This document shows, piece by piece, positions 12,746 to 64,000 of a DNA stretch of 64,000 bases. The DNA comes from Balanoglossus misakiensis (taxonomy: Eukaryota; Animalia; Hemichordata). Position 1 is the first letter of the stretch, and each line of letters starts with the position of its first letter. The stretch covers positions 6,150,202-6,214,201 of the forward strand of contig CM082588.2 of the NCBI GenBank assembly GCA_040954595.2, read 5' to 3'. The notes below the pieces were generated by a model that saw nothing but the letters and a program-made list of their open reading frames with translations, had not been told where the DNA came from and made no database searches. A program made the position numbers and the translations under genes.

Positions 12746-12751
12746 AATCAA

Positions 12752-16453: not shown

Positions 16454-16836
16454 CACTGTAAACGGAGACATTTTCGCGAACGATAAATTTTCACGAACTT
16501 CCGAGAGCCAGAAACAAATGCGAAAATAGTCGCGAATAAACAATATGCCACTCGGCTCTGTTCACACTCGGGCAAACAGAGTAACACGCGCACCCATTAA
16601 AATATAATGGTTGCGGTTTCATGATTTTGCTACACATTGCGCAATTTGTTTGAACATGATGGTTTGTGGCCAAGAATCTTGCTACAAATGCGACATATAA
16701 GCGTACAATTGAATGATTTTTGGAGATAACGGATGCAGTTAGTGAAATACGAGAACGCGAAAATTAATCGTCGCATAACAGTCCGGCTTTTGATATTGCG
16801 AAAATTTCGTGACGAAAAAAATTCTGGTTCAAAGTA
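16454..16836. mobile_element. Degenerate non-autonomous DNA transposon (MITE-like), ~380 bp
   Basis: The left end cactgtaaacggagacattttcgcg and right end cgaaaaaaattctggttcaaagta are imperfect inverted termini. The interior is CpG-rich with repeated ttcgcg/gcgaaaat motifs and has no credible ORF. Confidence 0.55.
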
Positions 16837-27104: not shown

Positions 27105-27140
<36 letters not shown>

Positions 27141-38453: not shown

Positions 38454-38488
<35 letters not shown>

Positions 38489-41400: not shown

Positions 41401-44400
41401 CTCTGTAGAGGTCCATCATTCCCATAGCAAACAATGAGGTTGGACCAAACCATAGTAGCGGTGGTGGACACACATGCTCACACACACATGCACGCACACA
41501 TGAACACACATGTACAACATCTGCCATCTGTAATTCAACTGCTAACCTCCATCATACATGTGTACGGACTTGCGTGTGATCACAACCACAAAACGGTACA
41601 AAATTTTGTCATCTGCTTCATTCAATTTTCAATCACCTTTGGATCAACAACAAATGAATCATTCACACACACACATTGAACAACATCTACCATCAGTATT
41701 TCAACTGTTCGCCTCCATCATACACAGGGGCTTGGGTGTGTGATCATGTCCACAAGACGGTACCATATTACGAAATTAAGTTCTGTCCTTCATTCAATTT
41801 ACCTTTGGATCAACCACCAACGAATCGTGTTCCTCGTTTGAAGTCGCCGACCCAACAGGTCCCTGCTGCGTCTCCAGTAACTCCATGGTTGCGTTCATCC
41901 ACACGCCCAACTCCTCCAACTCTTCAATGAAAGTCCGCACTATGTGCAGCTTGTCCTCTAGCATGTGACGGAATTTCGGTAAAGTGGAAGACACATATTC
42001 CCATCTTGTGTTGAGGTTGTGTAATTCTCGCTGTATTTCTACAGTCTTGGCACTGGGCTCACCAGCCTGTACAACTAGTTTCTCACCCTTTTGATTTGCA
42101 GACGTCAAGGAATCTTGACGTTTTGGAAGCTCATCCTCTCTATCCTGTAAACAATAAAATATAAAATAGGGGATTGAGAAAAGCAAATAAATCTTGAGTT
42201 GACATCATTATCATCTTGACAACACCTACATACAACCACAATCTATTTCGTAAGTCTGATGTATGGGTCCAGAAAATCTCATACATTTCTTGTTTATTTC
42301 CACATTGATTAGCATTCTTTTTCTTTCTTTTTACGTATCATTGATGTATTTTAGCTGGCAAGGAATGTTAAAATTCACTGGGGCATGTCAGTTTATTATT
42401 CAGATTGTCCTGAACAGTAAACCTTTAGTGTCACCATTTCACACTCAAAACAATTTTGACACAGATTGTATCTCTTGTGATAAACCGTTTAAGCACGGTC
42501 GTTTTTTCAGTCAGACATTTCTTTTATTGAAATCTCCCAGATTTTACTAAGCAGTGTGAATGAGATTGGTTTTCACTCTAAGAGGTTGCGACTATAGCTA
42601 CAAAGACCAACATCAAACCTCACTCCATCCACGCTGCAGACAATCATGGACCTCCGTGATTTTTCTTGACTCACCCTGACTTTGTCAAGTAAATCGTGAA
42701 GCGACTCATCGTCGGCCGGGATGGGCAAGGGCTTCTTCATCATCCCCTCGCACTCATCCAACCAAAACAACAAATCGTCTAAATCTTCCTGGAAGTCCTC
42801 GTGTTCAACTATCTCTGCATCAAACCTTTGAAAGACAAAAAAAGAAAACAGATCAAGATATTTTTTTCTTTTTTAACCACAAACATGGTCATTAACAATT
42901 CCCACCAGGATCTTCCCCTCCCCAATATCACAAGTCCTCCCCTTACAATCTCAGCTGCTGAGTGGCAAGGTACAGTTACTCACAAACCACCCACTCACCT
43001 TTCTCTCCTGTCCGACACCTCCGCGCACACATTCCTCCAGCGGATATTGAGTCCTTCGAGTTTTTCTCGGAGCAGGTTGGCATCCACGGCATTGCACTGC
43101 CTGATGATGTCCTCTCCAGATGCATTCAGTGAAGACACTGTCTTCTGGTACGTTGCTATGCCATCAAGTAAGACCTGCAAGAACACAACACAAAATCACT
43201 ACAATCAATACTGTTCTTTGGTGTTGATTGTTAATGTGGATAAGAACAAACACCTCAAAATGTCATTATGATGGTTAGCTAAGACATTTCATCGTCTAGA
43301 TATATACAGCAAGCATACACAAAATATAAACAGCGCCATCGTGTGGCATAAACGAGCAAGCATCTTAGTGGTAGGGTTCCTTGTTCAATGCGACCCAAGG
43401 CCGTATTTCTAATTCACTGACATCTGAGTCAGTACGACCTCAGACTTCAGACAGAAGGAGCACAGGGTTGACGTACAACTTCCACAACCTGCGGCTACCA
43501 GGTGGCAATGTACCACATCATTCAAGTCCCCATTTTATCAAGTCCATTAAAAACATCCAACTCTTGACACTGCCAAACCAGAAATGTCAGCCACAAAGTT
43601 CACACACCTGCCGGCTTTCTCAGGTTTTTATCGCTTTAATTCCCGTCATTTCCGTTCAGGTTGATTGAACCTCGAGGAAATGCAGGGAGAATTTATTATC
43701 CGGCTGTATTTGATGAATGTCCGGAGAAACCATAAAACTACCGTGTTGTTTGGCATTTCCTGTCTGTCAGATTAAAACCGGAAACCAATGCACAGAAACC
43801 ATACCAATGTGACAAGCAATTTCATAGCCAGTTCACCAAACTAAAACCTTCATTCGTGTTTATCAGATTATGTGCCATGAGAGTGATATTTTGTTTTTTT
43901 GAAAGGATGAAAAAAGTAACCCAAACGACGATAGACTACACAAGTTTGAATTTCATTAAAGTTCATCAGCATGATTAGCAAGACAGTGACACAACCACAC
44001 ATCGTAGACACACATGTCTTCATAGACTGAGTTCCACGTGCAAATTAGTATGCGTTCCACAAGCTACACTTTCAGAGTGCAAAGAGCCGTGAGTTGACAC
44101 AGTTCATTTGAGGAAATACACTTTGTAAGCCGAGCACACAAGTATATCCGAATGAATGGTGTCCAAACTCCGCGTCTCAGCTGTTCAATTTACAGACTCT
44201 GTATGTCTGTGATAAAGAGCCATGTCAGCAGAGTGGACACTTCAAGTGGCACTCAAAAGATGAACCCTCCCTACTTCAAATCTTCCCAGTTTATTGAGTG
44301 CATGGAAGTTATTTTTCAGTTGTCTGAGTAGGAATGCTAATTTTTGACAAAACTAGTCAAAGCCATCTACTAGTATTACACTCAGCTTTTTTACATGTGG

Positions 44401-47400
44401 GTCACTTTATGTTAATGTTATTTTAATTATTTTAAAGTATTTATTCAAATCATTGAAATCTTTTTAAGGATGAATTGACTTTGAGCAAAATAAAACTCAA
44501 ATTCAAACTTTCTAATGAGGAAAATTACATGTAAATTTGCCTAACAACCAAGCAAGCAGTGGCAATCAAATGGAGTGCAGTCCACACTACCGGTATGTGG
44601 TAATGTTGTAAACAGTGGTTGCTGTCGAAAATGGCATATATACGCAGTCATAGAAATGCACGTTTACTGGGGCTGAATTAAAGTTTCAGGGCTTTCAAGA
44701 ACTTTAGAAAAACCCTACATTTAAAGTAATTTCTTCCTCGACCTGTTAAACAGGATCAGAGAACTCCAATATTGTACCGATCGACAGGATTGCCAGACGG
44801 CATAATGGGGTTGAGACAGAGTAATTGGATGTTAAGTGAATGGCAGAATTGTCCTGTAAAATATGGATCAATCATTCTCACAGGCTGAAGTTGGCTGCGT
44901 GAATGATCAAACGCAGAATTCACCATCAATCAGACCGAAGCTCTCTCCCTCTCTGGTGAAGTCAGCCACCAATAACCCCGCTGGGAACCGTGATGAAACG
45001 CAATCCATCAATTTCTCTGCCGGCTGCTCTTTTCAAGAGAAACCTCATCAGAAATGTCGAAATTTTAATTTCTCAATGTCTTTGAAATATCCCGTGATTA
45101 AGTTTCTTGTTGAGCACAGTTTACGAGAGGAAAGGCAAAAGTCAAAAGGGACTCCTTTTCCAAATTGGATTAGTATTTCCTTTAATGTTTTAAATGATAC
45201 CTGTGGCTGTAGAAAAATTACAGCTGGCTGTCGGCTCAAGAAAATTTCTCATGTGTGAAAAGTGAGGATTTAGAAGCCATGGCAACCGTCTCCCTCAGGA
45301 AAATTGACTGTGTTGCTTGCAATTTTTATTATCTTCATGTCCTATGTCAGTCTGCTTGGGTATCTGATACTACTGAAAACATATATGCAGGCTTGCACGC
45401 TTCAGATAACTGAATTCATAGAATGTGATCTCGGGTTCACACATTTAAATATTCATGTTATGCAAATTATCAAATTTAAATTTGAATATTAATAAAGAAC
45501 TTATCAATTATGCTAACAACCACCAGGAAAATTAACAGTGTTTTAATTTTTGAAAAATGCTAAATCTTAGAGATATTATTTCCCTTGATGCTTATGTCAT
45601 AGACGTGTTAAATTCTAAATCTAGGCCACTGCTGATTTCACGACATGACCAGAATATTCATATGCTACCTGTCAGTCAGACCTCATTAGCATACCACTAT
45701 ACATAAGGAAAAGAAACAGCAAGATAGCAATTACTGTCACTGGCGTCTCCACAATCAAGCCTGATTTGATTAATGCTGGTCTACCAGTGGCTGATTGCAG
45801 ACATTTGACGGCACAAACTGCGTACACGGACATTTTATAATCAACGCAGAAGGGAAAATGGACTTCAGATGAAATGTGAATGCAATTGGGATGCTAGAAA
45901 TCAACATGTCACGACTTCATTTCGGTTTCAAGGTAACTTCTCAAGTAGACCTACCATATATGGGCATCCTTCAACTGGCAACTGAGAAGTGGTGATAAAG
46001 AGTTATGTTCCAAATCGATGTGAAATATCGCAGATGACATTTAGCTAAACTGCAGTAAAATTTGAATTGGAAATTTAAAACAAATCTTTACTATATTATC
46101 TTACTCGGTAAAATGTTAACAAAATTGAATAGAATTTTAGTGCCAAACGCCATCATCGGAGGTGCAATAAAGATATGCATTGAAAATTTCCACCAATTAC
46201 CCAAGCTGATAACTTGCATCGGGGGTTCATAAAAAATAGTGACGGGCCAATTCTAATTTCATCATAAAAACTGAATGTCACCTTCTGTCTAGCCTTGGCT
46301 CTGTCGTAGTCCAGTTCTCCAGAGTGAGTTGTTGTCTCTCGGATAATGTCTTCGGCTTCTGACAGCCAGGAGGCAAGGTCTTTCAGGTCACAGTGGAACT
46401 GTCGCCACTGCTCCAGGGACTTCTTGAAACGCCTGGAACATAAACAGAAGAATATTCAATGATTGGATGCATTCACTAAGGCAGTAATTTTGTATTTGCA
46501 AAAAAAAATCATCCAATTGCATTTAGTAATCCTTTCAAAACACCGTTCAGCCTAAGTTTTAATTGAGGGCACACAGACCCATATTCTGGATTGTTTGAAC
46601 CCTAGACTGAAGTAGCCTGATACAAAGCTTTTATGTTATAAGAAAGTGTTTTTTTTAATGTAGTCAGCGTTTTCAAAGTTATAGCTGGAGCCATGCTACA
46701 CCACTTTCCTGATTTCAAAAGAATACAACCAATTTCTTTGCTATGAGCGAAGTACAGACATATCTTATACATTGCGTTTTCCATTACATTAAAAGGTAAA
46801 CTGAACTTCCACTAACTGAGGCAACTATATAGTGCAATAGTATATGATAAATTATTCACACTACATTTTAGTGGAATTAACGTCTTAAATGTCATCACTG
46901 CCTCCATTATAGGGAACATCTGTGAATGTTATTCAGCGCAAAAACTGCTGAAACACCTTTCAGATGTTGCAGACTATGAATTGGTCAGTTACGGAGATTT
47001 CTAACAGTGTTTTACTGACGCCTCAGTGGCGACACGCCAAACAACAATGCGCACTTCTCAGCTCGATGCAGCTGTTGAGAAGTCAGTACAGACGCTCTCC
47101 AGTCCTTCAAACAGTATTAAAACATCTTCTGCGTTTCCACACGGAAACTTCGAGTTTCTCTTTTTACATTCATGGAACAGCCCTTCAGATCAGCTCTTTG
47201 CCGTGAACTGTCTCTCTCGAGGCCAAACCAGTGAATTAAAAGGATTTCGCTGGAGTAAATAATGCAGGCTTTATCATTAAGCGAGACTGTCACGTAGGGT
47301 GGATGGCACCACACGCACACTGCCAACATAGACATTGTATCTAGGGGGCATCAAGAGTTAGTTCTGAGATTACAACAGACATTTCGCTGCTCGCAAAGTC

Positions 47401-47937
47401 GTCGATATCACTGAACTCAATTGCCCCTGCTGGGGTTCATGTATGGCTTTATGAAACTAGATGCCCGTATGTTAAAACCTCTGATTCATAACAGTTATAA
47501 GTTGAGCATCAAGTCAGTGTTGATAAAATACGCAGCCATTCTCACTCTAATATTGTCAAGATACATGTACTGTGTCCTGTAGGGTTTTTCGGACATACTA
47601 TAAAGGATGATACTTCGGTACATACCAATGAGTGATGCCTGATATGATAAACATTCATTCAAAATACTGGGACTTTCACAAACTCTCGAGGAACATATGG
47701 ATAGCTGTGAGCTCATCTCCGAACACGTCTGGAGATGTAACTGAATGAAAGAAAGACGTCTTACCCATGCCTGTCGTTGTACTCCCTGTTGACTTTCTCC
47801 CATTCTCCCCGTAATTTATCCATCACCTTCTCAATGTTGGTCTTCTCTGCAGGATCGGCCTGTGAGATGACAACATCTTGCTGTTTGTTGGCCGCGTCAA
47901 CACTGGGGTTGATCGTGTCCAGGGCTTCCTTGATAGC
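19485..47937 (-). CDS. DMD: Dystrophin, 3' half (32 exons, 1690 aa; distal spectrin repeats, hinge 3, WW, EF-hand, ZZ and coiled-coil domains); upstream exons lie beyond the right edge
   Basis: Exons in transcript order: 47765-47937, 46282-46432, 42999-43174, 42675-42825, 41803-42144, 41078-41306, 40652-40878, 39113-39230, 38639-38850, 38004-38158, 37034-37223, 28756-28928, 27854-28116, 27515-27645, 27225-27359, 26766-26991, 26161-26221, 25658-25794, 25031-25235, 24789-24874, 24438-24595, 23930-24136, 23708-23779, 23235-23371, 22950-23018, 22678-22731, 22302-22365, 22029-22120, 21539-21779, 20954-21137, 19989-20132, 19485-19594. Total 5073 nt, all GT-AG, one continuous frame. Diagnostic peptides: [126 protein letters not shown]. 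Confidence 0.97.
23235..26221 (-). CDS. DMD: Dystrophin cysteine-rich region exons: WW, EF-hand and ZZ (homologues of DMD exons 62-70)
   Basis: WW ([27 protein letters not shown]), EF region ([26 protein letters not shown]) and ZZ ([34 protein letters not shown]...HPMQEYC). Confidence 0.97.
23425..23517. mobile_element. piggyBac-type MITE copy
   Basis: tcaacccttccacccc...tagaggtcc...ccatagaaaacaatggatttggaccaaaccatggtggtgaacagtgttaa, collinear with the 25315 copy. Confidence 0.75.
25315..25407. mobile_element. ~93-bp piggyBac-type MITE (best-preserved copy)
   Basis: Perfect 14-bp inverted ends TTAACCCTTTCACC...GGTGAAAGGGTTAA. A TTAA target site with CCC/GGG termini is the piggyBac hallmark. 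Confidence 0.8.
26766..47937 (-). CDS. DMD: Dystrophin rod-domain exons (homologues of DMD exons 43-61)
   Basis: Spectrin-repeat signatures such as [69 protein letters not shown] and [22 protein letters not shown]. Confidence 0.93.
27105..27166. repeat. (AG)n/(AGAC)n microsatellite
   Basis: Directly visible in a dystrophin intron. Confidence 0.9.
28131..28381. repeat. Diverged direct duplication (~110-135 bp)
   Basis: gagagatttgaatgag..gtaactaac..tgttacta..ataacagtgcact..ccaaact.aaattata..ggccaataatttcc..gctgaaaa occurs twice. Confidence 0.8.
29723..29855. repeat. Short dispersed direct repeats (cctcttccaagg x3)
   Basis: ccctcttccaagggcgaaaattcagg, cctcttccaagggtgaaaattcagg and ccctcttccaaggac. 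Confidence 0.7.
34475..34567. mobile_element. piggyBac-type MITE copy
   Basis: ttaatcttctcacccc...tagaggtc...aaaacaatacatttggaccaaaccatggtagtgaaggggttaa. Confidence 0.75.
38456..38486. repeat. (GT)n microsatellite
   Basis: Directly visible. Confidence 0.95.
39673..39870 (-). CDS. Candidate dystrophin cassette exon between the exon-51 and exon-52 homologues
   Basis: Acceptor CTGAC-tctgccccactcttgattcactgtgCAG, open phase-0 frame, and phase-0 donors after 39757 (GAG|GTCTGT) or 39673 (AAC|GTAAAG). Confidence 0.4.
41381..41465. mobile_element. piggyBac-type MITE copy (right end lost)
   Basis: accctttcatcc...ctgtagaggtcc...ccatagcaaacaatgaggttggaccaaaccatagtagcg. Confidence 0.7.
41514..41826. 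repeat. 166-bp-period duplication that includes a dystrophin exon end and 5' splice site
   Basis: acaacatct.ccatc...cctccatcatac...tgtgatca...cttcattcaatt...acctttggatcaac.a..aa.gaatc at 41514-41660 and 41680-41826. Confidence 0.8.
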
Positions 47938-50900
47938 CTGCAATGTCAGCAGAAAGGGGACGAGATAATAAGCTCACTGCAGATACGACTGATGGCATCC
48001 CCACGAAAAGAATACTCATTAAAACCAACTTTTTGCGATTGCGACGGCAATATTGTATGTAAAGGTTATTAATCTGGGCTAGCGAGTTCCATCTCATCAC
48101 TGTGAACAAGAACTAGCCTGACATACAATCTCGCGGTCATTTAGATGAAAATTGTATGCTTTTTTGATTAAGCCTATATATCGTGCTCATGCATCCCTGA
48201 GTAAATGTGAAACGTCTGCTCAGCCAATGCAGGTAACTTTAATCAGGTACTTGACAGTGTAATGGAACCTTTTCAGAGATCAAATTGTGATGAACTGAAA
48301 TGCCGTCTCTGATTTCAATCTCATGGATGTTGGATCCACAGACTCTTGGTGGCTTTCAAACACCACAAACAGACAATACCATAGAAAATGTAAATATCAC
48401 ACACTTATACAGTAATACAAACATTCTTTGGACACTTTCCATATATACGTATTTTCAGACAAAACCATTCACACAGAAGGATTACGATTATGATGTCCAA
48501 AACACAAATGAAAGGCATAACTTTTACTCTATAGACAGAAAAAACAGATGTACACACACATACACTGCGTGCTGAATTCACTTTCACTTCTGAATTTGTA
48601 CATCACATCATACATGAACAGGATATCAGGTCATTTGCATACTCACTCATATACAGACAAAGGTAAGTCAGTTTAGAGACAAAACAGTGTATACTGATCC
48701 TGTCCAGATGGTCAATATCAGTAATTCTTCCACACGAGAGGAAAACAACCATGAAAACTTCGGCCTGTGTTTAACTGGTGATGAAGTAGTTCACACTCAC
48801 AGCGAAGGTGATGCTAAAATCTAGCCGTACATTGCAAACCGTGTGACTGTTACCCAGTCCTACCCAGATGGTACTGAGACACATCAGGCAGGCATACAAA
48901 TATATATGTATCCATCCATGTACAAAACGTACTAAATATGCGATATCAATCACATATATTTCACACATCATGACTCTCATAATTGATGTCAGAATAATAA
49001 ACAAGTTCAGGAAATCCTAAGAAGGCAATTTCTGTGATTTATGGCGTCAAAGCAGACATTCAACAAATGGGTGATCTATAATCGGAAATAATGATTCCTC
49101 CTGATAGCGAAGTTTGTCCTCTCTTGTATGATGTCACTGGTGATATGAGGATTTACTGTGTCAAAAAAAACTTTGATGAGGTGCCGGAGTTGTCAGATGG
49201 AGCAAACGCAACGATCCGGGAAAAGCTCTCGCGAACCACTGACTATCCATTTGGAGAGGCAATTACCCTTTTGGAAACCATTCAGTGATGGTTTCCCTGT
49301 TGTGGGAATATAGTGTGCCACCTGAGTTTTTAAAAGTGCCACAGAACGTAATGATCTTGGTTTGACACCCTTACTTTTTATTTCAGCAAAGCCATCAGAT
49401 ATAAAATGGTGCTTACGCATCCACTGGGAGATATTTATCAAAGAAACACAGCATGACGCAAGATTATGTTCTACCATCCATGGCGAGACTGCAGTTTACT
49501 TTCCATGGCTAGATGTTTCAACTCATGATATCATAAACTCAGAGAGTGACTTTTCAATAACTAGTTATTCATTTTAAAAACTGCAATTTATCCAACTTAT
49601 GCCATATGTCTAAATTAAAATAAGGTGACAGGATCAGGTGTTTAAGTGTTATCTATACAAATCCACATCCCTAATTAGTTATACATTGCCCTTTATTTTT
49701 GCTGCTCTCTTTTTCGCAATCTAGCATTCAAGAATTCACTTCTAACCGACTAGAATTTGATTAGTTTCAGCATGAGGATTTGGGTTTCTTAGAGTGTTAA
49801 GCTCACAGTTTACTTGAGAGAAAATCATGGTGCTTTCATCAACTCCACACATGACTGCTCACAGCACTGACGAATGGTTTTGCCTTACGTGGGGGATTAA
49901 CACAGATTGTTTCAATCTCGCAACTAGAATATGTGCCCATGTTGAGTTTATTGAATACAAGAATGAATGTGCCCTGAGGTGGTAAACAGACTAAGGGTGA
50001 TCATTTATCAGTATGGGGGCAACCACAAATTAAATCTGTTTTCCCTCTTGGGAGCGATGTGGCTATATACAGTTTATATTTGCATTTTTAAATTTTTGAC
50101 AGAAACAAATGGCGGCTAAGTGACTGAACAAACCAGACCACGTCATCACCGCAACACGCAAAATAGCTGTAGGACTCTATTCATAACACATGTATTTGGA
50201 GATTTATGGAGCCATTATAGGCTTATCTTGGTGTTTCATCGTTTTCAGTAAATCAGTCCGGAGTAAGACACATTCACCTTCTAATGACTAGGACAAGTAC
50301 TGTTGAAATCACTCTTCTCCGCCATGAAAGCATTTAGAAACATAGCCTGTCGACAGAAGAAGTGATTAACATCGCATCAAGTCAGAGAAAATATTTGCGG
50401 GATGGGGCTCTTAATTTATCCAGGAAGATTCATGGTCCGAATATAGCATCGGTATGTATATTCCTGTGGTGTATGAGAAGCATATATCAGTCTAAGCACA
50501 TTGTGTCTTGGACATCTAATTGAATTACAAATTACAGGCTGCTGTGCATTGGGACAGCGTTTATCACTCGTGCATGTTCCATCAAATACCTCTTCCCTAG
50601 CAAAACTCTGTCCCGAGTGGCGTTAGGCGCAAAGTAAGATCTAAAAAAAATTCCCTATTTCACACCTGGGTGTATTGACGCTATGATATCCGACACTTCA
50701 CTTTTTTCCCTAGTTTAAGAATGACGAAAAAGCTGAATCCAGAAATGACACACAACGGAAACTTCTGTCTTTCATAGAAAAAAACTTACGGCATCCAAAA
50801 GACAAAACTTCAGCCTTCAACTGAATGCATTCATCCTATTGTTATCAGAGCCGATAGACGATGAATGAATTATCACCACATTAATAAAAACACCTACACT

Positions 50901-53900
50901 TTTGAAACTAGAAAGATTACTTGCATTTAATAATTGCTTGCAGACAAAGACTTGATTGAAAGCACTCTGGAAGTAATTAATAATCAGTGGAACAAAGGTC
51001 ACGTTATTAGATGCTCAGGCAGGATAGTAACGAGCCAGTTTCCAATGTATGGTGATCAAATTCCAGCTCATGCCCACAACGACAATACACTGATAATCCG
51101 TCAAGAAAGATGTCAGTGCACACAATATCTGTGATTAAAATCTGATGCGTTGAGATTAACATCAGAGGTCTCCCTACACTGCAAAGCCTGGCTTCGTTTT
51201 ATGACCGTAATCCCTACACGCAATGAAATTCTGAAATATTATTCTGTTGACTTTGATTGAAAATTGATTTTGCGATGCGACGTGACTCTCCCTGTAAGCT
51301 GAACACACAAAAACCCAAGGCTCCTAAAAAACAAGAAGAAACCAGACACACTGACTGTAAAATCGGTACGTGACTGTGTGTATCTCTCTTGTGTTCTTAT
51401 TAAAACCAATGAAACTACCTCGTTCGATCACAGGTTGCAGGGCTGTACGCGAGCGAGAGTAATCAGCTTCCAGATTCACTGTCATCCTCTGGGAAAGTCA
51501 GATACTTGGCCAATAACGCTGCTTGCATGACAAACAGTGCAGCCCTCTATATTTACACTCCAGAGGGTCCAGCAATGCCGACATGCGGACAGAACAGCCA
51601 ACCAGGGTATCGTAATTGTGTCTGAGTTTACATGTTACTGACACGAGAAGACAAAGTCCGGCTCCTTGTCTTGAGATAATTACAAGTGCTAATAAGTCTG
51701 TCGGACAGACTCCTGTTTTCCCTCTGCAGGTTTTGAAACATAGGCAATAGTGGTGTACGTGTCTGACCACTCAAACTGTCATCCTCTTTGACAAAACTGT
51801 CATGTCCGCCACTAGCCATCTTTGACCTATGTTAAAAACCTTCAGCAATTACTTCCATCTCCAAATATAAACAGCGAGAGAATGACACAGGAAGCAAACG
51901 TGCGAATCAGTAAAATTTAACAGTAGAATATTGCAATTTTATCAAATCATCCAGAAAACTGCAAGTTCTGTCTGTGATAAAAATGATGGACGTTATTACC
52001 AGTGTGAGGTAGAATATTTTTTATCAAAAAACTGCAATTATTTGCGTTGTCAATAGCAGAGGCGATATTGCTCACAGTGGCTGCACTTGTCACTGGCAAT
52101 TTCCTCTTCTGACACTCGGATGAAAAGAACACAATGGTGTGTACATGTTAGCGGAGACAGAATGACATTTGTCTGTTGGCTATATGCAATTACTGGGGTA
52201 TCTGCAGCAATGATGGGGCAGGAATGAATAGGGCTGAATGGCTGATGCTGGCTCAAAGTTTTCTTATAATGAGATTAATTTAAGAACAGACCACCCCTTT
52301 GCACAATACCACATACAGTGTGGTACGTGTGATCTGCGAGTTGCCATTTTGTTACAACTAACTCTACTTTCCAGAGGAATACAATCGTCAGTACAAACTT
52401 CAAACTTCACTTGCATCACTGGAGTCTACAAGACTGCACATGAATCCTGTAAACCACAACTGACTGAACACAGCATCATGCATCAACCATTAGCACGAGC
52501 ATTGAAAAATCAAATAAACACCTCTGCGGTAACCAAGGAAACTTGAAATGGATCGCATTCTGATTCTTTCAAATTTGCGCCGAGATCACATTCACACTGG
52601 GAAAATGTGTCATAGTGCCATTTTGCATTTTTCTTTCTTATCCCTTGATGGAAACTTATTGTGTGTTAACACTTGGTGTACATGTACCAGTAGCCTGTCT
52701 AGTTTGCAATATTTCACACTGATCTACGGTATAACTTCATGCACCATCTAGATCACTATGAATTTCATTTCACATATCATCTGGTTCTGTTGGATATTAC
52801 AGGATACATAGTACACACATCAGCCTTGTGCAGTATGTAGTGCCTCACTGAATACCCATACTTAATATTTTGCAGAATCAAATTTTCAGAAGGCATATTT
52901 ATTTTTAGCTGCACATTCTGTGTAACCAAATTACATCGGGGTGTGAATAATACAGGATTGGCAAATTCCTTTATAAGATTAACACCCCGTGTTTGCGCTG
53001 ACAATGTCCCCTGAGCTGTTAAGCCATCACCGGATAATGAGCCGAGGCCGGGCCCGCGCTAATGCGCCGGTCGGATTTGACGAGGAGTCGAGTAATGAAA
53101 GAGCAAATCATTTGGGCCGGCTTAACACTCGGACGCAGGGAAATGACTGATGCTATAACCTGCCCTCCAGGTGGAGAGGCCATGGCAAGAGCAGACAGTA
53201 CACAGCATGTAGCCAATGCTACCGGCACTTATTTTCAAGTGCCGTGTTATCCCTGTGTTTATGGGTCGGCATAAATTTTGATCTATGTGGTGCTGTTGGA
53301 TCCTATCATAAATCATGGAATCATTACATGCTTATTATGATTCAGCACACTTTAGTATGGGTTGAAAAGCTATTATTTTACATGACTATTAGGGAAATCT
53401 AGTCCAAAGGCTTCCCAATTCCTCAATTGTTTACAGTATTGAGGATTTATTACAAGAGCTAGAGGACTGTTTGGGAGTTTTCTAAATTACAATTATGACA
53501 TATTTTTCTCTATATTTCCAAAATGCCAATAATAATAATGATATAATGATATTGACCTTCAGTTTTAAAAAACACAATCGCAGTACAGTACTTCCGAAAG
53601 AAAGCGAATATTGTATGTATACTCAATGTACATACTACATGCCATTACAAAATTTTGCTCTACCCTGTTGGGGAACCTATTTCAAAACAACAGAGATGAT
53701 ATATGTCAATTAGTTTCCTCCAAGATCCTTCGGGACGACGACTGCAAAGACAACAAATGACTGATGTTCTAGACTGAAAACCCGAAAAAGCCCAAATGAT
53801 TTCCACTAGTCAATATTAAAAGAGGATGGAATAGAAATTGCACAATAAAACATGTAATTTATAGAATGGAAGTCATAGAACACCGCTGATGAACTGCCTG

Positions 53901-54779
53901 ATCATATTTTATTTACTGGGGTAAAGTGTCCTGAATAAAAGCTACAGTACAAAGGGAACACTTAAGATATCACTTCCTTCTGTTACAGTGTTCAGTATCA
54001 AGTCAACCACTCTCAAATGACACTATAATTTCAATGTCACGCTCTTTTATATCAGTCTTTTCTCTCACAGTTCGACATATCAGAATAATCGTGTCTAGTC
54101 TGAAATTACTGTTCAAACACAAGATCCTCAGTAACATACATGTACAGCCCTCGGTGATATTTCACCGGAATGGCCATGAACTAGCCTTAATAATTTATGC
54201 AAGTTTCCATTTCAAGGCCACGTTCATGGGGGTGCTGTCTTGTAAAGAAGGCACAAGAATAAGATTCGTCAACAAAGTCATGATCACAGCTGTAAATACT
54301 GAAACTGAGGATAACAGGAATAGAAGAAGGTCACCAAACCATTCACTGGCTTTCAATGTGCGGTTACGGTTGTATATCGCATAATAGATGGGTTTGATGA
54401 AGTGATTAAGTCGTCAGGAAAACATTCTAGTTTCCTCCAGCCATCAAGGACAAATAAAAACAGAGAAGCTCAAACATCAATTATTTGTAATGACTAGTCA
54501 ATGCATATTAAACAGCAATTGGACTTAGAATCCCTCGGCAAGTCCCCATTTCTGGTGGAGATGTTTATGTTTGATGGCTCAGATGAACTAACCACTACAA
54601 GCTGTAATCAGACACTAAAAGGCATTTCTTGATAATGTTTGCTGCTAAATGTTGTCAAGATATTCCTACACATGTCTTGCCATCGTATATAAACAATACA
54701 AGGAACGATAGCTATCGACAGATAAATGTTTTGAGGAGTTCGCAATGTATATGCAATTAGAGAAAATATGTAGACATCG

Positions 54780-54801
54780 CTCTCTCTCTCTCTCTCTCTC
54801 T
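54780..54801. repeat. (CT)n microsatellite
   Basis: Directly visible. Confidence 0.9.
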
Positions 54802-55677
54802 TTTAAGTGGTCACATTTAATGGCTTGGATGAGCTATGCCGTGAACACACAAGTGAAATGTGTTTTTCCATTTTTCTCTCCCTACTGACTTTCCAGGATG
54901 ACACAGTCCATCAGTTCTCATAACAACATCACAGCTTCCAAAGTGAGTCATCCATGCAAGACTATATTTGACATTCAAAACAAGTTTTAAATGTTCATTT
55001 TCCTGAGTGTGTCCCCACGAGAGGAAGGCGACCTTATAATAGCACGATCAGGAACACCCGGGCTGACAGAATCCACACCAGATGGTCATTCATTCATTCT
55101 TACATATTCACTGCACCGTGCAAATTATTGCGCGCACACGTCCGAGTGCATATCATCAAATGGTGACATCACCAACTGACATTAATGCACGCTGATGTCT
55201 TTGCCTGTCAAGTTGAAATACACACCTTACAAGTAAGTAATGAAGAAATCGCCATCACACGATTGTCTATCATCTACGATCAAACAGCCCCCTTAACAAG
55301 CCTTGGACAGACCTCACAACTTCACTCATTATATCATCACAAAATTCTTGTCTGATTCTCTCGCTGATGTCTGATTATGCAAATTGTTAACACCCCAAAA
55401 CTACTCTAAGCAGTGGGGTCTGTTTGCTTGACAATTTCAGAAGAAGATGACATTAATGAAATTAGTACATATGTCTCTTTGGTAATCTGATTACAAGGAG
55501 CTTCAAATCGTGTGTTTGTCCAAGTGGTAAATTAGCAAACCCATGGGTGAGTAACGCTTCCTGGTAAGATATCCCCTAATCAGGAAAGGACGGATTTCTA
55601 AATTGAGATTTTCTGGCACAAGACACAATAAACCAAACATTCTGGACAGAAAAACGTCCACGTTCACAGAGACTTAC

Positions 55678-55734
55678 AGCATAGTTGTCCGACTGCTTGT
55701 TGTCGCGGCACTGTTCGAACATCGTGGAAGTCAT
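55678..55734 (-). CDS. Candidate alternative first coding exon of dystrophin (MTSTMFEQCRDNKQSDNYA)
   Basis: ggcATG...GCT|GTAAGT, 19 codons, phase 0, in frame with the exon starting at 47937. A CpG-rich leader lies upstream (~55735-56460). Confidence 0.5.
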
Positions 55735-57613
55735 GCCTGCTCCTTCCTTCCTGCCTTCGCCGTTTCTTAAGACGCAGAGAGAGAGTGGAAACCCGGACAA
55801 GGAAGGGAATATACTCAGATCCTCTGCGGACTTTGGGAATGCAAATGTCCGCAACACATCAGCGATGAAGCGGTGTCCGAGCTGAATACTAAGTACCTCA
55901 CCCGTTGCGCGAATGGAATCTTCCACAGCCAAGAGCGCTGCTGCATTGAAATGCTGGGAACTTCACCGCTCAGTCACGGGTGACAACAGTCCATGTGCTC
56001 TAAGCGGACATCTTAGGACATACAGCATAAGTAATATCTCAACACCATATTTTTATAAATCAGGCTGAACCAAAGACTTGACAGTATTTGTCCGCAGTCA
56101 GGCGCGAAACGCTTGTGTATCTTAATTGTCAGTGACAGATGGCCAAGCGAAGAAAAAAAACTGGAATCTTGATAACCTTACGTGAGACGGAATATTAACA
56201 GAGTGGTTGTTACAGCCTTTCTGAAGAAAAGCCAGCGGTTGATCCGCAATAAAGATACACTTTGAGAATTGGCTCCAAATGCACCCTGAAGAACGTTCGC
56301 AATAGCACGACTTTATTACCCGGCTTTATTGGTATTCAAGTGGGATACAATGCACCGGGCAGTTACGTGGATTTCCGAAACGGCCACAAATTACAGTTTA
56401 TGCAATGCGCCTGCCTGAAATATGCAATTTCTATGGTAATGACCAATCGCGTGAAAGAGGCCAACTCAGCAGTGTGTGATCAGATGCGTGTCACAATTTG
56501 TATCTCTTGTTTTGTACATTGTTAGCTCGACAAACCAGAAGTGTCCAAATGTAAATGTCTTCTGATATTCAGGCATAGTCAATCTGATATTCATGATTTT
56601 TAAGGTATTACCCAATCGGGTGAAAAATCTATGTAGCCTACAATCAAAAGCAAATTAAAGTCTTACAGAACTGGCATGTCCTTCATTCACTGATAGTGTC
56701 ACTGAAAAATAGGTTAGTCAAATATTCAATCTGAGCTCTGCATACCAAACCTAATTTTGGTAGAAGAACTTTCCTGTTTGCAAGGTCAATTCTTATGGAC
56801 ATAATCCTCGAATGACGGCAAGAATAAATTTGTTCCACTGGAAATTAAGTGGATACATGCAAACAGCGATTTCATTATCAACTACTATGTTACTGGTTGT
56901 CCTTCAAAATCTTTCTTCATGGTGATATATTTACTCATCTTGAAGTGATATCACTAGTTGTACGGTATATTTCAAGCCTACAATCTGAAACCATGTCAGT
57001 TTAACTTTAATTAGTTACCTTGCCAACTAAGTCACCGACAAACTACAAAACTACCAGTGAGTTATAACCACAACTGCAGCTAATGACGTACATACACACA
57101 AAAAATTCTTGACATTTCGTAAATCCAATCAGCATTTAACTGCACTTTTTGCCCCGTTAAACCAAACATTGATATTTGACTGGCCAACTTGGTACCGCAA
57201 GCACCTGGGACTGTATTGACTTTTCCAAGTACCTCCTTTTAAGAAATTACTGTCTGCAAGTTTATAAGACTTGAGAATTTGCAATCAAACCGCACATCGC
57301 CTCGGGCGGGTTTTCCGTAAAACACTCTAATCAGAGAACACCGCCATAAAGAAGACACACAACGAAGGGTAACCATGACGACTGGTGTAGTGAAACTGCT
57401 ATGGGTGTGATGTACCTCAGATTTTAAAAGTGAAGAACGTGACTGGATTTCACGCACGGAGTTTAATGACCTCAAGGAACATCTGTATGCCTGACAATGA
57501 TGATGTCACAGGAAAAGTCTTTCCAGCAAAAGATCTCTTATCGACTATTAATATATAAATCTAAATCCATGGAAACCTGCCACTTTCATTGTTAGAATTC
57601 ACCCACTACTTAC

Positions 57614-57664
57614 AGCACGGAATGATATTTGCTTTTGCTTGAACCATCGATACAATTCGTACAT
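57614..57664 (-). CDS. Candidate alternative first coding exon of dystrophin (MYELYRWFKQKQISFRA)
   Basis: gacATG...GCT|GTAAGT, 17 codons, phase 0. Confidence 0.45.
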
Positions 57665-60600
57665 GTCCTGCGCTTTTTTCGATCATTGATTTACGAACTA
57701 AATCAATGTAAGTTTGCCTATAATTCAGTTTTCTGTATAAAAGCTTCCTCTAGTGAAAACGCAAACTCCTACAGCACGAGTCAAGACACACACAAGTCGA
57801 TGGCAGATTTCCTTTGGGGGAACATGGCATCCATTCTCTCAACCACTAAAGGTAGAAACCAATTTCCTCAACACGTGCTTAATATTCCCCCTGTGCAAAT
57901 GAACAAATGATTCTCTAAGCCTGGCAACTGCAGGAATTTTAAGCCGCGATTCAAGAAGTAATAAATTTTGCTATGAAGCTCTCGCACTTTCAATCTCAGA
58001 GCAAATAATCTTGCGCTGACATTCTAAACAGTAATGGATGATAATTCTGAACAAAAATGAATGCTATCTTGATTCGAGTGCCATCTACACAAAACAAAAG
58101 GCCACAGCTGCAAGGGCCATCGCTACTTATAAAAGATAATTTGAATTTAAGCTGTCTCCGATATCGCAACCCCAGAACAAGCTCTCCTGAATTCACCATC
58201 GATCGAACCATAATCCTGAACGCCACTACCAAACCGAAAGAGATAAACTCGTGACATACGAGGTTTATCAGTCAGTGAACAGCCGGCATTTACAGCCACT
58301 CTGTATGTAAGAGACGTCTCTCACTGAGGAAAACCTAGGGAGAATCCATCTGATATTTTGGGAGGGGGCACTGGAGGAAAGGCATCAAAGGGACTCAACT
58401 GCAGAGACAAGTATTATTTTTGACATCTGGTAAAATTTTTCATATCCTTAAATTTATGCTTGTTTTATTTCATCATGTCAATTCGCGATGGACAGATTTT
58501 CTTTCTTTGTAAGCTTGCACGCATTTGACTACGAAAGAGTGACATAAGTTATTACGCAAACCACACACCCCATCTCATTTAATGCAAACCGCGTTTCATT
58601 GTGAAGTGCTATTTTAAACCACCCCCTTGGAATAATCAACCATCTTCTACGGTTTGCTTTGTGTCGAAGAGGTGTCAAAAACAGCATCTATGTGTTAGTT
58701 GATTCCCAGGGCAGGCATGTTGCTCGCATGTACGTCATGGCACCAGGTATCAATTCTCTTTATGTTTTTTTTAACAGCCTATTGCATTTACTCAAACGCA
58801 AAACATGTCATTATTAAATGAGCTTTCATCAAACTTTGGGTTTGAGATCGTATATACTGAATGCACTGTCATGTTGAATTCATAAAATCTGTCGATAACA
58901 AGCGATGTCTTTGTCTTCTAGTGCAACCTCTATTTGCCAATAAGATGTTCAGTCTATATAGTGGAAATTGAAACAATATTTGGAAAATTCACAGCAGAGA
59001 AAAATGTTATCCTGTAAATCTTTGAACTTAGCTGACAGGTTGTCACTTTTCTGAATGATAGCAATGACGCGATTGTGCAAATATTAAGAAACTGAACCGT
59101 CTCAAATGTGTTTTGAAAAATTAATCAGCACCGGAGTTCAGTCAGAATATTATGTTGACAGCTAATTTATCAAACAAGTAATGAAAATTCAAATCTAGAT
59201 GCTTCAGATGGTTGACTGATCCACAATTTGCATACGGATTAATTCAATGCATATCAAGTCTCTGAAACAATACCGAAATAGTTCACCGAAATGCTGAACA
59301 AAATTGCAACTGAAGTATTATTGACCAAACCAGGAAACTCGCATCAGGATCAAAAAGCACAAAAGGGCAGGTAATTAATTATACGCAGGCAACTGGTCTG
59401 ATGAAGTAATGTATTTGCACACAGACACAATAAATTTGTAGAAGCAGATTGCATGGTCACACTCCAGTGACTACCCACTCCCAGGCAGAGACAGACAGAC
59501 CCATGGCAAATTGTCTGACAGCATTATTAGTTAAAAAAGACTCCACTGGTCGATTATTTTTTGATGGGCTGATCCCTACTGGGACTGCTAGTCCACCCAG
59601 ATTCCTTTTAAAATAACTCTTTTTGTTGAAGATTACTGGCGAGTAAATTAACTCATTACATGTGTACTCTGTGACCCACTGGCTTCAGCTACTAAGCTAG
59701 GCTTATGTGTACAACCAGTATGGACAGCAGGAAGGCTAACCATGACAACAAGGGCACTATATAGTCCTGTGAAAAAGACTGACTTTTTGTAGTCTGCAGA
59801 AATTCGGGCTATGGTATAGAATTCCACAGGGAAACTAGAACCCCTTGTTGAGGGAAATGAACAAGCCAGATTGATCTGGCAAGTAATTTACTGCAACATC
59901 CTGATATAAAGTTCAAATGGACATCGGTGGGGGCGACTGATTTACAAGAAAATTACCCACTTTCAGAGTAATTTTGAAACTCCTTATTTACATTATACTG
60001 CTAAACTTCAGGGGAGTATATACAGTCTCGTTTTCATGATAACGAAGGAATACAAGTCATTGTCAATGACTTAGTCCAAATTGAATTAAAGGTTTACAGT
60101 CACCTCTAATTTACATACTGTATATGCCTATACATGTATATGGTCCATAGGGTGGGTCTAACTGTTAGAATGACTATGTGGGGACACGCTTTTTTGTGTG
60201 TGTCACCCACTGAAAATCAATGATTGGCTAGATATGAATTTTCCATGGCAACAGTGGCTAAATTTAAAGCCAAAACTATAGTAAAAGTCCCTTGGACTTT
60301 GTCCACAGGGACTAAGTACTGTTCCCTAATGGTCTTTTAACTAAGTGATCAAATTTCCTGATCGTCGTGGAAATTTTTCCAGACATGCTGGCCATGATAA
60401 ATATCACGCGTTGATGTAATCCACCACATTGCCATGACAACCTGGCATCATTAAAGTTTCGGTGTATTTCACAGGCTGGTACTACCGGCAGCGTTGCCAA
60501 CAGCACGTTGTTAGAAATGCTTCAGCAAGAAAAGAGAAGATTTTCAGGTGCTGGTGTGTGGATTTTCCCGGAGGACAACACATGCTTTGGACACATCTGC

Positions 60601-62525
60601 GTGGGTCGCATAAGTCCACAACAAAGCCGGTTTGATTGGGACAGATATCGGCACCAGACACTCACAAAGAAGCGTAATGGAAGGATTCTTTGCGACGCTA
60701 CGAGCAAAACACGCCACAAAGACAAACTGCTGCCAAACAGAACCTTTTCACACATTTCTTTCGAAAACAGAATTTTTCCTATTTATGGACGATGATAATC
60801 CTGCATAGTCAGTGAGATTATATTTGTTGAAAACCATTTCATTCAAAGATGTATCATCAATATATTCTCTATCTGTAAACACAGACACTCTGATTTTAAG
60901 TCAATTCACTTCAATGTCACACGAAACCGCACAGAGACTAAAAACGCACCATTAAAATTCATGACAAACTGCACAGAAATCACATTTCAAAATTCTCCGT
61001 GAACTTTAATGCTATCCAATTTTGATGGGTTGACTCTGCCTGACACAGGGATCCAGAAAGCAATTAACTAAACTTCCCCTCATTAATTATTCATTACCGT
61101 AAATTCAATTTATATCCAGATCGACTACAGCACCGACTGATTGCGTTATTGGGATACAGTTTCCACTTCATCGGGGTGAGAAGTGTCTCAAAAAGTTGCG
61201 CGGTTTCTCAAATTTCAGCACCTGGGGTTCAGCTTAGGTTAGTTGCCTATCTGAAGTGGTCGTATAAGGTCTGACACAATCGATCTGGCTCACTCTGAAG
61301 AACCTCTGAAAGTATCCCTGTGTGCATCGATCAATCAGTAAAACTACGGTAAAATTTTGAAGCAGCAGAAAGCCAAATGAAAGACATAATTTTTTCATTT
61401 TATACAAGAAATAGAATCCCTTCCACATAATATGAATCCTTGCAGTGGAAAGGTTGCATGTTTTATTTTATTTTAAAACATGCCTACAAAACAGAGGCTA
61501 TCAAATTTGATTGTTTTCTTTTAAATAACAACTTTTTATTTCGTGTTTGTCAAATAAAAGACCACATCTCTATTATTGAGATGAGGTTCCCAATTGACAC
61601 ACCTCACAACAGCCTCAAACAAAGCAGAGTCATATTTCATGCAATTTCATGAAGAGTGACAAAAGTCGCCAGGCACTGTTTAATTTCCTATCTAATAATC
61701 ATGTCGGGCCTTTTCATTTCGCAGGGGACACACACAAAAGGGAATTTCATTGTCCCCGCGACAATGGCTTTTATCGATACCAGAGTGTGTCACGCTAGTT
61801 GATTCAGTGTAGCTGTCGCACAATAGGGAAAATTGTGCAAACACGTGGCTCCATTGAAGTCAATTTTTTTTTATGCAACACGCATTTACACACCAGAACT
61901 CGAGAAAATTGCAATTCCCAACGCTGGATGATTTAACGAACAGTGGTTGAACACAGTGTTCCGTGCCAATTTCAAAGCAGAATTTGATGTAATTTGAAAC
62001 TACTAACAGTCTTCCGCCCCAACTAAACAGCTTTTTTTTCGCCAGCAAACTAAGTTGAGTGGAAAACTGCAATTACACTGTGCATGGTTAAGCATTCTAA
62101 TTTCACCGTTTTTTTAACAATTGTACAATTGTTAGTTTTCACTTGAAACATTTCGTGCTATTTTCAGGCAATCCACCTGGGAAAGTCTTTCATATTTTGT
62201 ACCCAAACATACTCAGAACATGGAATTTAATGCAATTCAACCAAAAAACCATTTCAAGCCGAGAAAAAGTCTAAAATTTAAAATTACCAGCAATAAAACT
62301 GCCACTTTACAAACATACATACGCACATGATCTGAAAAATCCATCAGTTACGTCAATATCATCAGAGTTACGTGCCCCCTATGAAAATATTTTTGGAATG
62401 TAGTAAGTACCTAACGCAATATTCATACTACAAAATGTGTTTTATGTTAATCCCAAGTTAAAAACCAACACATCGGGATTAAGTTTACTGCAAAAATGCA
62501 AGCAAACTCACTGTGCTGAAAGAGT

Positions 62526-62618
62526 TCGACCCTTCCACCCCAATTTTATATTACTCTGGTCCAATTTACCACAGGAAACAATGGGATGAGACAAAACAAT
62601 GATGATGAAAGGGGTTAA
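62526..62618. mobile_element. piggyBac-type MITE copy (diverged)
   Basis: tcgacccttccacccc...ggtcca...ccacaggaaacaatggga...tgatgaaaggggttaa. Confidence 0.6.
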
Positions 62619-62679
62619 AGATACAAATGTGCCTGTCCGCACGTGGGGATGTCTACTGATCTTACTGCAGTAGCGTTAT

Positions 62680-62682
<3 letters not shown>

Positions 62683-62710
<28 letters not shown>
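62683..62710. repeat. (CA)n microsatellite
   Basis: Directly visible. Confidence 0.95.
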
Positions 62711-62713
<3 letters not shown>

Positions 62714-62845
62714 AGCACAACAATAGGACTGTAGCCCTGCACAGCAAAAATTGATCCGGTTTTGCTGTATTCAGGGTCTGAAGACAAAGTATATGCTATG
62801 AAATTTCAACACACAAAAAGGCACAGAAAAATATGAAATACTAAC

Positions 62846-62887
62846 TGGGAGCTTGATGAAGTAACCGCCAAGACTTCTGACGCTCAT
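62846..62887 (-). CDS. Candidate alternative first coding exon of dystrophin (MSVRSLGGYFIKLP)
   Basis: aacATG...CCA|GTTAGT, 14 codons, phase 0. It follows a ~270-nt CpG- and pyrimidine-rich leader with an Inr-like TTAGTC near 63160. Confidence 0.4.
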
Positions 62888-63866
62888 GTTAATTAACACC
62901 TGTGGCCGTGGCAACAAAGAGAGAGAAACTCCGAGAGAGGGATGCTGATGAGCGGAGGAGATATCGATGCCGGATCCGAAACGAGATTATTCCAGAGATA
63001 TTCCGGAGAGATACTTTTCCACAGGCAAAACAAAAGCCACTGGATGTGGCTCCCAATAAACACACGAGATCAATCCAGGGTATACTAGTAGTCCCTTGGT
63101 TGTCCGCTGTACTCAACTCAGTGACTGTGTTTCCCCTTCATTCATTAGTTCCTGGCGACTAATTGTAATGTGGTGATAGTACGGGGGAGGCATGGGGAGG
63201 GCCGTTCCATTCCGACGGCAGGGGTATCACTGAAAACCTACCCGCTGTCATAACTATATGTCTATAATCGGCCCCCTGATGATGTGCGAATTAAATGTTG
63301 ATTACTGCCCGGTGGGACGAGATCAGAGGTGGATTGCGTGTCATGTGACAGGTCAGCTGACTTGGAGTAATGAGTCTACAGTCTATGGTTTCAATTCCAT
63401 TCACGGATGTGGATGCACCCCTCCTCACACACACACATGAAATATGGCAAAATAAACATTACAAAATAGAAAATTCCATCTAAACTCTAAGATTCACACA
63501 TGGGTTAGAAAACACCAACATGAATCCAACCTCATTATACATTCATACGATCATTAGACGGTGTAATAATTTTTCTTTGTTAATCCCAATCTATCAAGCT
63601 TCATTTCAGCCAGCTATGCAGTCAAAGCAATTTCCCCCTCTTAAATCCACCCAGCATTTGTAAGCTCACCTACAGCAGAAAAAAAAATATTTTTTTTCCA
63701 AACCGCACCATTTAAGGCTAATCCAGTTCTACTAATTCCTATCACTGCCCTGACAACATCTGTCTGCTTTGAGGGACGTTGATCTTTCGGAGTTCCTATT
63801 TATTTCATCACTATCTAACCGATGGCGATAAGGATGAGGTTTACTCTCTGGCGGTTCTACATCATT

Positions 63867-63880
63867 GTAACCATGGTAAC
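63867..63880. promoter_or_regulatory. RFX X-box consensus match
   Basis: GTAACCATGGTAAC fits GTNRCC-N(0-3)-RGYAAC. Motif match only. Confidence 0.4.
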
Positions 63881-64000
63881 AGGGCAATTTAGAAAGCCAA
63901 TGCAAACCTGGAGAACTGCGACCAACTGAGACTGTCAAACACGATGAAACCTCATCACCAGTGAAACACTGATACTGATGTTGCCCTGATAAACGAGGAC

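What the first reader, a model, noticed from the sequence alone, without database searches (positions are those of the whole stretch)
47938..64000. Possible array of alternative first exons in the dystrophin intron upstream of the exon-43 homologue
Seen: this >16 kb stretch has no spectrin-repeat exon but contains several minus-strand ATG-to-donor cassettes, all ending in phase 0, the phase of the acceptor at 47938. They are 62846-62887 (MSVRSLGGYFIKLP), 60666-60755, 57614-57664 (MYELYRWFKQKQISFRA), 55678-55734 (MTSTMFEQCRDNKQSDNYA), 51643-51819 (MASGGHDS...) and 48801-48884. By manual count, 4 of 7 perfect GTRAGT hexamers have an open in-frame ATG, and three of these end GCT|GTRAGT. Established: dystrophin genes use internal promoters (human Dp260/Dp140/Dp116/Dp71, Drosophila Dp186/Dp205/Dp117), and I know of none in human intron 42. 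Inference: a multi-promoter cassette making ~1,700-aa isoforms that lack the N-terminal actin-binding domain and differ only in a short leader. One or two cassettes would be expected by chance.
Basis: partly seen in the sequence, partly recalled or inferred. Interest (0 to 1): 0.8.

Follow-up and report, generated by a model that had tools for sequence, protein, structure and literature searches.

The report
Candidate start-exon cluster inside dystrophin intron
An unusually long intron in the dystrophin gene of an invertebrate relative of sea urchins holds more start-codon-to-splice-site cassettes than chance gives, which likely mark several internal promoters that would make half-length dystrophins with different short tips, but no transcript or cross-species evidence was found.

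Summary
The cassettes, the exon-43 homologue and its phase-0 acceptor are as described, and no upstream dystrophin exon lies in 47938-64000. The body from exon 43 on is 1,672 aa. Two of the six cassettes end in GTTAGT or GTCAGT.

For: 9 of 19 GTNAGT sites close an in-phase ATG frame of 14+ codons (controls 13 of 92). Eight of those ATGs have a purine at -3 (1.2 expected; 0 of 3,000 simulations). The intron exceeds 16 kb against a 380-bp median, and gene models of five related species begin at this exon.

Against: no cassette donor has G at -1 (22 of 30 real donors do). AG|GT donors and a trained donor matrix show no excess. No leader resembles any of 182 fetched N-termini. No RNA could be examined.

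Verdict: about even odds that several cassettes are real alternative first exons; 55678-55734 is best supported. All six being real is unlikely. Internal-promoter dystrophins are well known, and sea-urchin gene models show several alternative leaders at intron 55. If real, this is a new position for a known device.

The parts
47938..64000 (-). 3' part of the intron upstream of the exon-43 homologue (intron 42 by human numbering); over 16 kb, runs off the window
   Evidence: No upstream dystrophin exon by HMM; other 30 introns median 380 bp, longest 8,105 bp; CpG observed/expected 0.63 against 0.45 in the other introns
47765..47937 (-). Exon-43 homologue, 173 nt, phase-0 acceptor; second half of a spectrin repeat; the shared exon that leaders would join
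47821..47823 (-). In-frame Met (residue 39 of exon 43) with G at -3 and +4; possible start for transcripts with non-coding first exons
   Evidence: Lytechinus variegatus and Patiria RefSeq models begin at this residue
55678..55734 (-). Best candidate first exon, 19 codons, donor GCT|GTAAGT
   Evidence: Donor 9-mer identical to the real donor at 23708; donor plus codon score 11.6, above all 173 controls; local CpG count in the 99th percentile; 125 nt free of ATG upstream; G at -3
57614..57664 (-). Candidate first exon, 17 codons, donor GCT|GTAAGT
   Evidence: G at -3; neutral codon score, total 5.9; another ATG, out of frame, 22 nt upstream
48801..48980 (-).
   Evidence: (score 9.7)
62846..62887 (-). 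Candidate first exon, 14 codons, weaker donor CCA|GTTAGT; could also be a 54-nt internal exon from a weak acceptor at 62899
   Evidence: A at -3; 254 nt free of ATG upstream (1.2% of gaps); score 7.8; acceptor score 4.6
49863..49940 (-).
   Evidence: the myristoylation pattern is recalled, and 2 of 222 background peptides match it; negative codon score
60666..60755 (-). Weak candidate, 30 codons, donor TTT|GTGAGT
   Evidence: G at -3 and high local CpG, but lowest total score, -1.0
51643..51819 (-). Weak candidate, 59 codons, donor CGT|GTCAGT; an 81-nt in-frame internal exon from an acceptor at 51723 is also possible
   Evidence: A at -3 and G at +4; score 1.3; acceptor score 6.6
19487..46432 (-). 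Remaining 30 dystrophin exons (exon-44 homologue to the stop): further spectrin repeats and the conserved C-terminal region with EF-hand and ZZ domains
   Evidence: One open frame of 1,672 aa from exon 43; Pfam Spectrin, EF-hand_3 and ZZ in 4 exons tested

Best explanation
The long intron before the exon-43 homologue likely holds several internal promoters, each with a short coding first exon that would splice in frame to exon 43 and give dystrophins of about 1,690-1,730 residues without the actin-binding front end. Shown: the intron, the cassettes, their phase, the 1,672-aa shared body, and a statistical excess of in-phase cassettes with good start context. Inferred: transcription starts upstream of each cassette, its donor joins the acceptor at 47938, and full-length transcripts skip the cassettes because most lack a good acceptor. 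Probably three to five are real (55678 first, then 48801, 57614, 62846, 49863) and the rest are background. The products would begin in the middle of a spectrin repeat, keep the later repeats and the C-terminal binding region, and serve mainly to express a short scaffold in different tissues or stages. A targeting role for the leaders is untested.
For: GTNAGT sites closing a phase-0 ATG frame of 14+ codons: 9 of 19, against 13 of 92 in the five other strand and phase sets (p = 0.003); 2.55 expected, P = 0.002 in 4,000 simulations. Purine at -3, which was not used to pick the set: 8 of 9 against 20 of 51 controls (p = 0.007; 52% background). Combined: 8 seen, 1.17 expected, 0 of 3,000 simulations; GTRAGT alone 4 against 0.53, p = 0.001. 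All 4 GCT|GTRAG sites in this intron close such a frame, and the only other minus-strand copy in the window is a real donor. Seven of the 8 real donors lacking -1 G are GTRAGT, one of them GCT|GTAAGT. The intron is over 40 times the median, while the same intron is about 0.55 and 1.5 kb in L001 and L003; PMC1790709 (passage) cites Neuman et al. for a link between intragenic promoters and large dystrophin introns. Gene models of three echinoderms and two amphioxus species begin at or just before exon 43. Sea-urchin RefSeq models show several different leaders on exon 56.
Against: No cassette donor has G at -1, whereas 22 of 30 real donors do. AG|GTR cassettes with a -3 purine: 0 seen, 1.0 expected; G|GTR 4 against 5.0. 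A donor matrix trained on the 30 real donors shows no phase-0 excess (score 5 or more: 10 of 51 against 9 of 51, 7 of 51, 5 of 39, 10 of 39, 4 of 39), and the six cassette donors score 3.6-5.7 against a leave-one-out median of 8. The plain 4-of-7 count is not significant without a length cut (p = 0.19; P = 0.23). Thirty donor and length definitions were tried, so the corrected P is 0.01 or less, and this window was itself chosen from a very large scan. No cassette peptide resembles any of 182 fetched N-termini, and none of the 120 listed of 678 short dystrophins has a unique leader joined at exon 43. The related models that begin at exon 43 may only reflect genes split at a long intron or an assembly fault. 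Codon usage is negative for 60666, 51643 and 49863.
Confidence: 0.5

Rival explanations
1. The cassettes are chance ATG-to-GT runs in a long intron that is spliced only from exon 42; the excess is a look-elsewhere effect.
For: Donors unlike the gene's real ones: 0 with -1 G against 22 of 30; no excess for AG|GT or matrix-scored donors; GTRAGT density equal on both strands; no conserved leader among fetched proteins; 1-3 cassettes expected anyway.
Against: Phase, strand and start context agree more than 3,000 simulations ever gave; shared GCT has P = 0.003; local CpG is raised at the four GTRAGT cassettes (P = 0.02; P = 0.07 for all six).
Confidence: 0.27
2. The intron holds an internal promoter, but only one cassette (most likely 55678) or a non-coding first exon is used; a non-coding exon would start translation at the Met inside exon 43, as Dp140 starts at an internal Met.
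For: Good context at the exon-43 Met; Lytechinus variegatus and Patiria models begin exactly there; only 55678 outscores all 173 controls; Dp140 precedent (PMC1790709, passage).
Against: One real exon does not account for 8 seen against 1.2 expected. The echinoderm starts may be fragments of split models.
Confidence: 0.15
3. Some cassettes are internal, alternatively spliced exons inserted in frame between exons 42 and 43 of the full-length protein, and their ATGs are incidental.
For: In-frame open acceptors exist for 62846 (54 nt, score 4.6) and 51643 (81 nt, score 6.6); the exon 42/43 junction is phase 0.
Against: The four GTRAGT cassettes have no good in-frame acceptor (best 2.2 or lower; real acceptors have a median near 10), and internal exons would not need a purine at -3.
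Confidence: 0.08

Closest known systems
Vertebrate internal-promoter dystrophins Dp260, Dp140, Dp116, Dp71 and G-utrophin
   Same: A first exon inside a large intron splices to a rod exon and drops the actin-binding domain (PMC11967788 and PMC1790709, passages read).
   Different: Human first exons join exons 30, 45, 56 and 63 (PMC11967788), none joins exon 43, and each is a single exon. Here several candidates would share one acceptor, and none is shown to be used.
Sea-urchin short dystrophins from the intron-55 orthologue (SuDp98; RefSeq models P0186, P0051, P0196, P0200, P0202)
   Same: Several different short leaders joined to one phase-0 rod exon in a sister group. This is the nearest precedent for an array.
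   Different: A different intron (55, not 42), products of about 1,000 aa, and two of the leaders recur between urchin species, whereas no match exists for the window's leaders.
Drosophila Dp186, Dp205, Dp117
   Same: Invertebrate short isoforms with unique N-termini and no actin-binding domain (PMC2840664, passages).
   Different: They keep 4, 2 and 0 spectrin repeats by that review; the predicted products here would keep about eight and a half (human repeat numbering recalled).
Utrophin first exons 1C, 1D and 1F
   Same: Several alternative first exons splice to one shared exon, exon 3 (PMC6032923, passage).
   Different: They sit at the 5' end of the gene, not in mid-rod.
Variable-first-exon clusters such as protocadherins and UGT1A (recalled)
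   Same: Many promoters feeding one constant body.
   Different: Those are tandem duplicates encoding whole domains; these cassettes share no repeat and encode 14-60 residues.

Membership tests
Dystrophin gene | Spectrin repeats followed by the conserved EF-hand and ZZ region, with conserved exon order | tested here: met
Internal-promoter short dystrophin isoforms | Unusually large rod-domain intron | tested here: met
   Over 16 kb against a 380-bp median; no upstream exon inside
Internal-promoter short dystrophin isoforms | First exon able to join the next exon in frame | tested here: met
   Phase-0 cassettes and phase-0 acceptor; excess over chance
Internal-promoter short dystrophin isoforms | Splice donor like the gene's working donors | tested here: inconclusive
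   GCT|GTAAGT equals a real donor, but no cassette has -1 G and matrix scores are low
Internal-promoter short dystrophin isoforms | Transcription start in the intron and splicing to the shared exon | not testable with these tools
   No RNA holder was listed, so no reads could be laid
Internal-promoter short dystrophin isoforms | Leader peptide conserved between species | tested here: inconclusive
   No match among 182 N-termini, but no close relative's intron or transcript was available
Tandem variable-first-exon cluster (protocadherin or UGT1A type) | First exons are duplicated paralogues encoding a domain | tested here: not met
   No shared repeat among cassettes; no Pfam family

The most novel reading that the evidence does not exclude
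Intron 42 is an undescribed promoter hub of invertebrate deuterostome dystrophins. Five to eight unrelated, independently born first exons, all with donors lacking -1 G (perhaps so that read-through transcripts skip them), each cap the same 1,672-aa body with its own tip, some carrying lipid-anchor signals, and so give cell-type-specific membrane scaffolds.
Probability: 0.22. Interest if true: 0.6.

Novelty: new variant of a known kind. Interest (0 to 1): 0.4.

Why it matters
If true, it adds a dystrophin isoform class of about 195 kDa that starts in mid-rod at a position not reported in the papers searched. It would also show that internal dystrophin promoters can come as arrays of unrelated first exons. 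That bears on how the Dp-series isoforms arose and which rod repeats a short dystrophin needs. One 5'RACE from exon 43 would settle it. The principle itself, internal promoters in large dystrophin introns, is long established, which caps the interest.

Tried and rejected
No whole genome is held for this window. The search for sequencing runs on 38500-48400 gave no RNA holder listed; this is no evidence either way, and no reads could be laid. Exon 43 against longer proteins: 25 candidates, none passed. HMMER over cluster representatives: 25 hits, best 58% identity, none from this species. Searches with the Antedon protein gave 4 hits and 678 hits with 120 listed; none listed has a unique leader joined at exon 43. 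The metagenome scan gave 3 distant loci with no intron conservation to the window. No Rfam match, no Pfam match in the intron, no duplication between cassettes. No TATA pattern shared by the cassettes and no unusual amphipathic helix. Sea-urchin intron-55 and amphioxus leaders do not match the window by tblastn. The family-wise figure of 0.0 printed is an artefact of simulation resolution and was replaced by a Bonferroni bound of 0.01. Earlier findings by place and by sequence were blank. The clade could not be narrowed beyond a non-echinoderm invertebrate deuterostome.
Full report
Gene and organism. The minus strand carries the 3' half of a dystrophin gene. Thirty-one exons from 47937 to the stop near 19487 give one open frame of 1,672 aa. 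In a tree of the last 900 residues (18 rows, no amphioxus or acorn worm among them) the window is sister to five echinoderms with support 97/96. A 167-residue tree that included amphioxus was unresolved. So this is a non-echinoderm invertebrate deuterostome, an acorn worm or an amphioxus. Exon 47765-47937 matches the exon-43 position in Antedon and other dystrophins and covers Spectrin profile positions 46-99 of 105, so anything joined to it starts in the middle of a repeat.

Observation. All six cassettes read as stated and end in phase 0. Profiles of the exon 41-42 region and of the N-terminal 2,300 residues find nothing in 47938-64000. Eighteen long ORFs and two cassette peptides there have no Pfam hit, and Rfam finds nothing. 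The minus strand has 7 GTRAGT, 4 with an open in-frame ATG and 3 ending GCT. Two listed cassettes use GTTAGT (62846) and GTCAGT (51643). The hexamer is not enriched: 7 sense and 7 antisense here, 8 and 8 in 22.8 kb of the other introns. The cassettes are not duplicates of one another.

Is it more than chance? Order-4 Markov simulations expect 1.16 such cassettes (P = 0.035), or 2.42 of any length (P = 0.23). Counting every GTNAGT site gives 9 of 19 against 13 of 92 controls (p = 0.003), with 2.55 expected (P = 0.002). A feature not used to pick that set then agrees: 8 of the 9 first in-frame ATGs have a purine at -3, against 20 of 51 control cassettes (p = 0.007) and 52% of all ATGs in the intron. 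Cassettes with all three features number 8, against 2, 0, 1, 0 and 1 in the control sets and 1.17 expected; none of 3,000 simulations reached 8. With 30 definitions tried, the corrected bound is 0.01. Three GTRAGT cassettes sharing their last codon has P = 0.003. GCTGTRAG occurs five times on the minus strand of the window: four times in this intron, each closing a phase-0 ATG frame, and once as the real donor at 23708.

Results against. The excess lies only in donors that lack G at -1. In this gene 22 of 30 real donors have it. An array of ordinary first exons should also raise the AG|GT class, which shows 0 cassettes against 1.0 expected; G|GTR shows 4 against 5.0. A position matrix trained on the real donors shows no phase-0 excess at any threshold, and scores the six cassette donors 3.6-5.7 against a leave-one-out median of 8. 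The matrix does undervalue this class, since 7 of the 8 real donors without -1 G are GTRAGT. By my estimate this point cancels much of the statistical excess if first-exon donors must resemble internal ones, and less of it if they arose anew from intron sequence. That question could not be tested here.

Ranking. Donor plus synonymous-codon score: 55678 11.6 (above all 173 controls, best 11.2), 48801 9.7, 62846 7.8, 57614 5.9, 51643 1.3, 60666 -1.0. An unlisted cassette ending at 55902 scores 10.4 but has a poor start context. Local CpG is raised around the four GTRAGT cassettes (P = 0.02) and less so for all six (P = 0.07). 62846 and 55678 have 254 and 125 nt free of ATG upstream, while 57614 has another ATG 22 nt upstream. 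The unlisted 49863-49940 cassette has A at -3, G at +4 and a Met-Gly-x-x-x-Ser start (pattern recalled; 2 of 222 background peptides match).

Context from relatives. The intron exceeds 16 kb, whereas the other 30 have a median of 380 bp and the next largest, 8.1 kb, is the intron-55 orthologue. In two distant loci the same intron is about 0.55 and 1.5 kb (L001, L003). RefSeq models of Strongylocentrotus (P0189, P0191) begin three residues before exon 43. Those of Lytechinus variegatus (P0038) and Patiria (P0046, P0166) begin at its internal Met. Two amphioxus hypothetical proteins (P0002, P0003) put unrelated leaders before it. This suggests a long intron, or starts at this point, across these groups, but split models explain it equally well; full-length Strongylocentrotus and Antedon proteins run through the junction. 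No cassette peptide matches any of 182 fetched N-termini. Only 120 of 678 hits were listed, so relevant isoforms may have been missed. No RNA could be examined.

Mechanism. Best reading, at 0.5: several internal promoters, each with a short coding first exon, splice to exon 43 and yield proteins of about 1,690-1,730 aa. These would lack the actin-binding domain, keep the later repeats and the C-terminal region, and differ by 14-60 residues. The cassettes, phase and body are shown; transcription, splicing and any role of the leaders are inferred. Rivals: chance (0.27); one real or a non-coding first exon using the exon-43 Met at 47821-47823 (0.15); internal cassette exons (0.08).

What is known. 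Human short isoforms join exons 30, 45, 56 and 63 (PMC11967788, passages; its one mention of intron 42 is the mdx2cv mutation). SuDp98 and fly Dp205 arise in the intron-55 orthologue, and promoters are said to correlate with large introns (PMC1790709, 12 of 17 passages read; Neuman 2001 and 2005 seen only as cited). Fly Dp186, Dp205 and Dp117 keep 4, 2 and 0 repeats (PMC2840664, passages). [quoted passage not shown] PMC10293626 (passages) leaves isoforms aside. Sea-urchin RefSeq models already show several leaders on exon 56, and cephalopod transcript-type proteins have unique leaders at neighbouring exons (P0048, P0173). Six literature searches (listings, at most 20 rows each) showed no report of a promoter upstream of exon 43. 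The library lacks most subscription papers, and no supplements were read.

Verdict. If real, it is a new variant of a known kind. Interest 0.4.

Noticed in passing
window 33692-33733, minus strand (intron-55 orthologue): A 14-codon ATG cassette with A at -3, G at +4 and donor TGG|GTATGT, in phase with the exon-56 homologue. It ends in Trp and has a Glu-Trp pair like a leader shared by two sea urchins; a possible Dp116-type first exon, but tblastn gave no match.
   Followed up: partly
   Followed up: partly
P0186, P0051, P0196, P0198, P0200, P0202, P0054: Sea-urchin RefSeq models carry several different leaders on exon 56, two of them recurring between species and one hydrophobic; I did not find this array described in the papers read.
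   Followed up: partly
P0048, P0173, P0053, P0056, P0124: Cephalopod, bird and fish proteins with unique leaders joined near exons 41, 42 or 44, suggesting repeated internal starts around this part of the rod.
   Followed up: no
window 19600-47764: CpG observed/expected falls from about 0.6 in introns 42-44 to 0.2-0.4 in most 3' introns, which could reflect lower methylation near internal starts.
   Followed up: no
window 1-778 (minus) and about 7200-8800 (plus): Neighbouring genes: a TauD/TfdA-family dioxygenase exon (Pfam) and exons that look like a SET-domain methyltransferase (by eye; no Pfam hit).
   Followed up: partly
window 10062-13488: Several AT-rich tandem arrays with periods of 46-205 bp, downstream of the dystrophin gene.
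   Followed up: no
window 16001-17000: The highest CpG observed/expected values in 14001-64000 (0.87-1.29), possibly a promoter.
   Followed up: no
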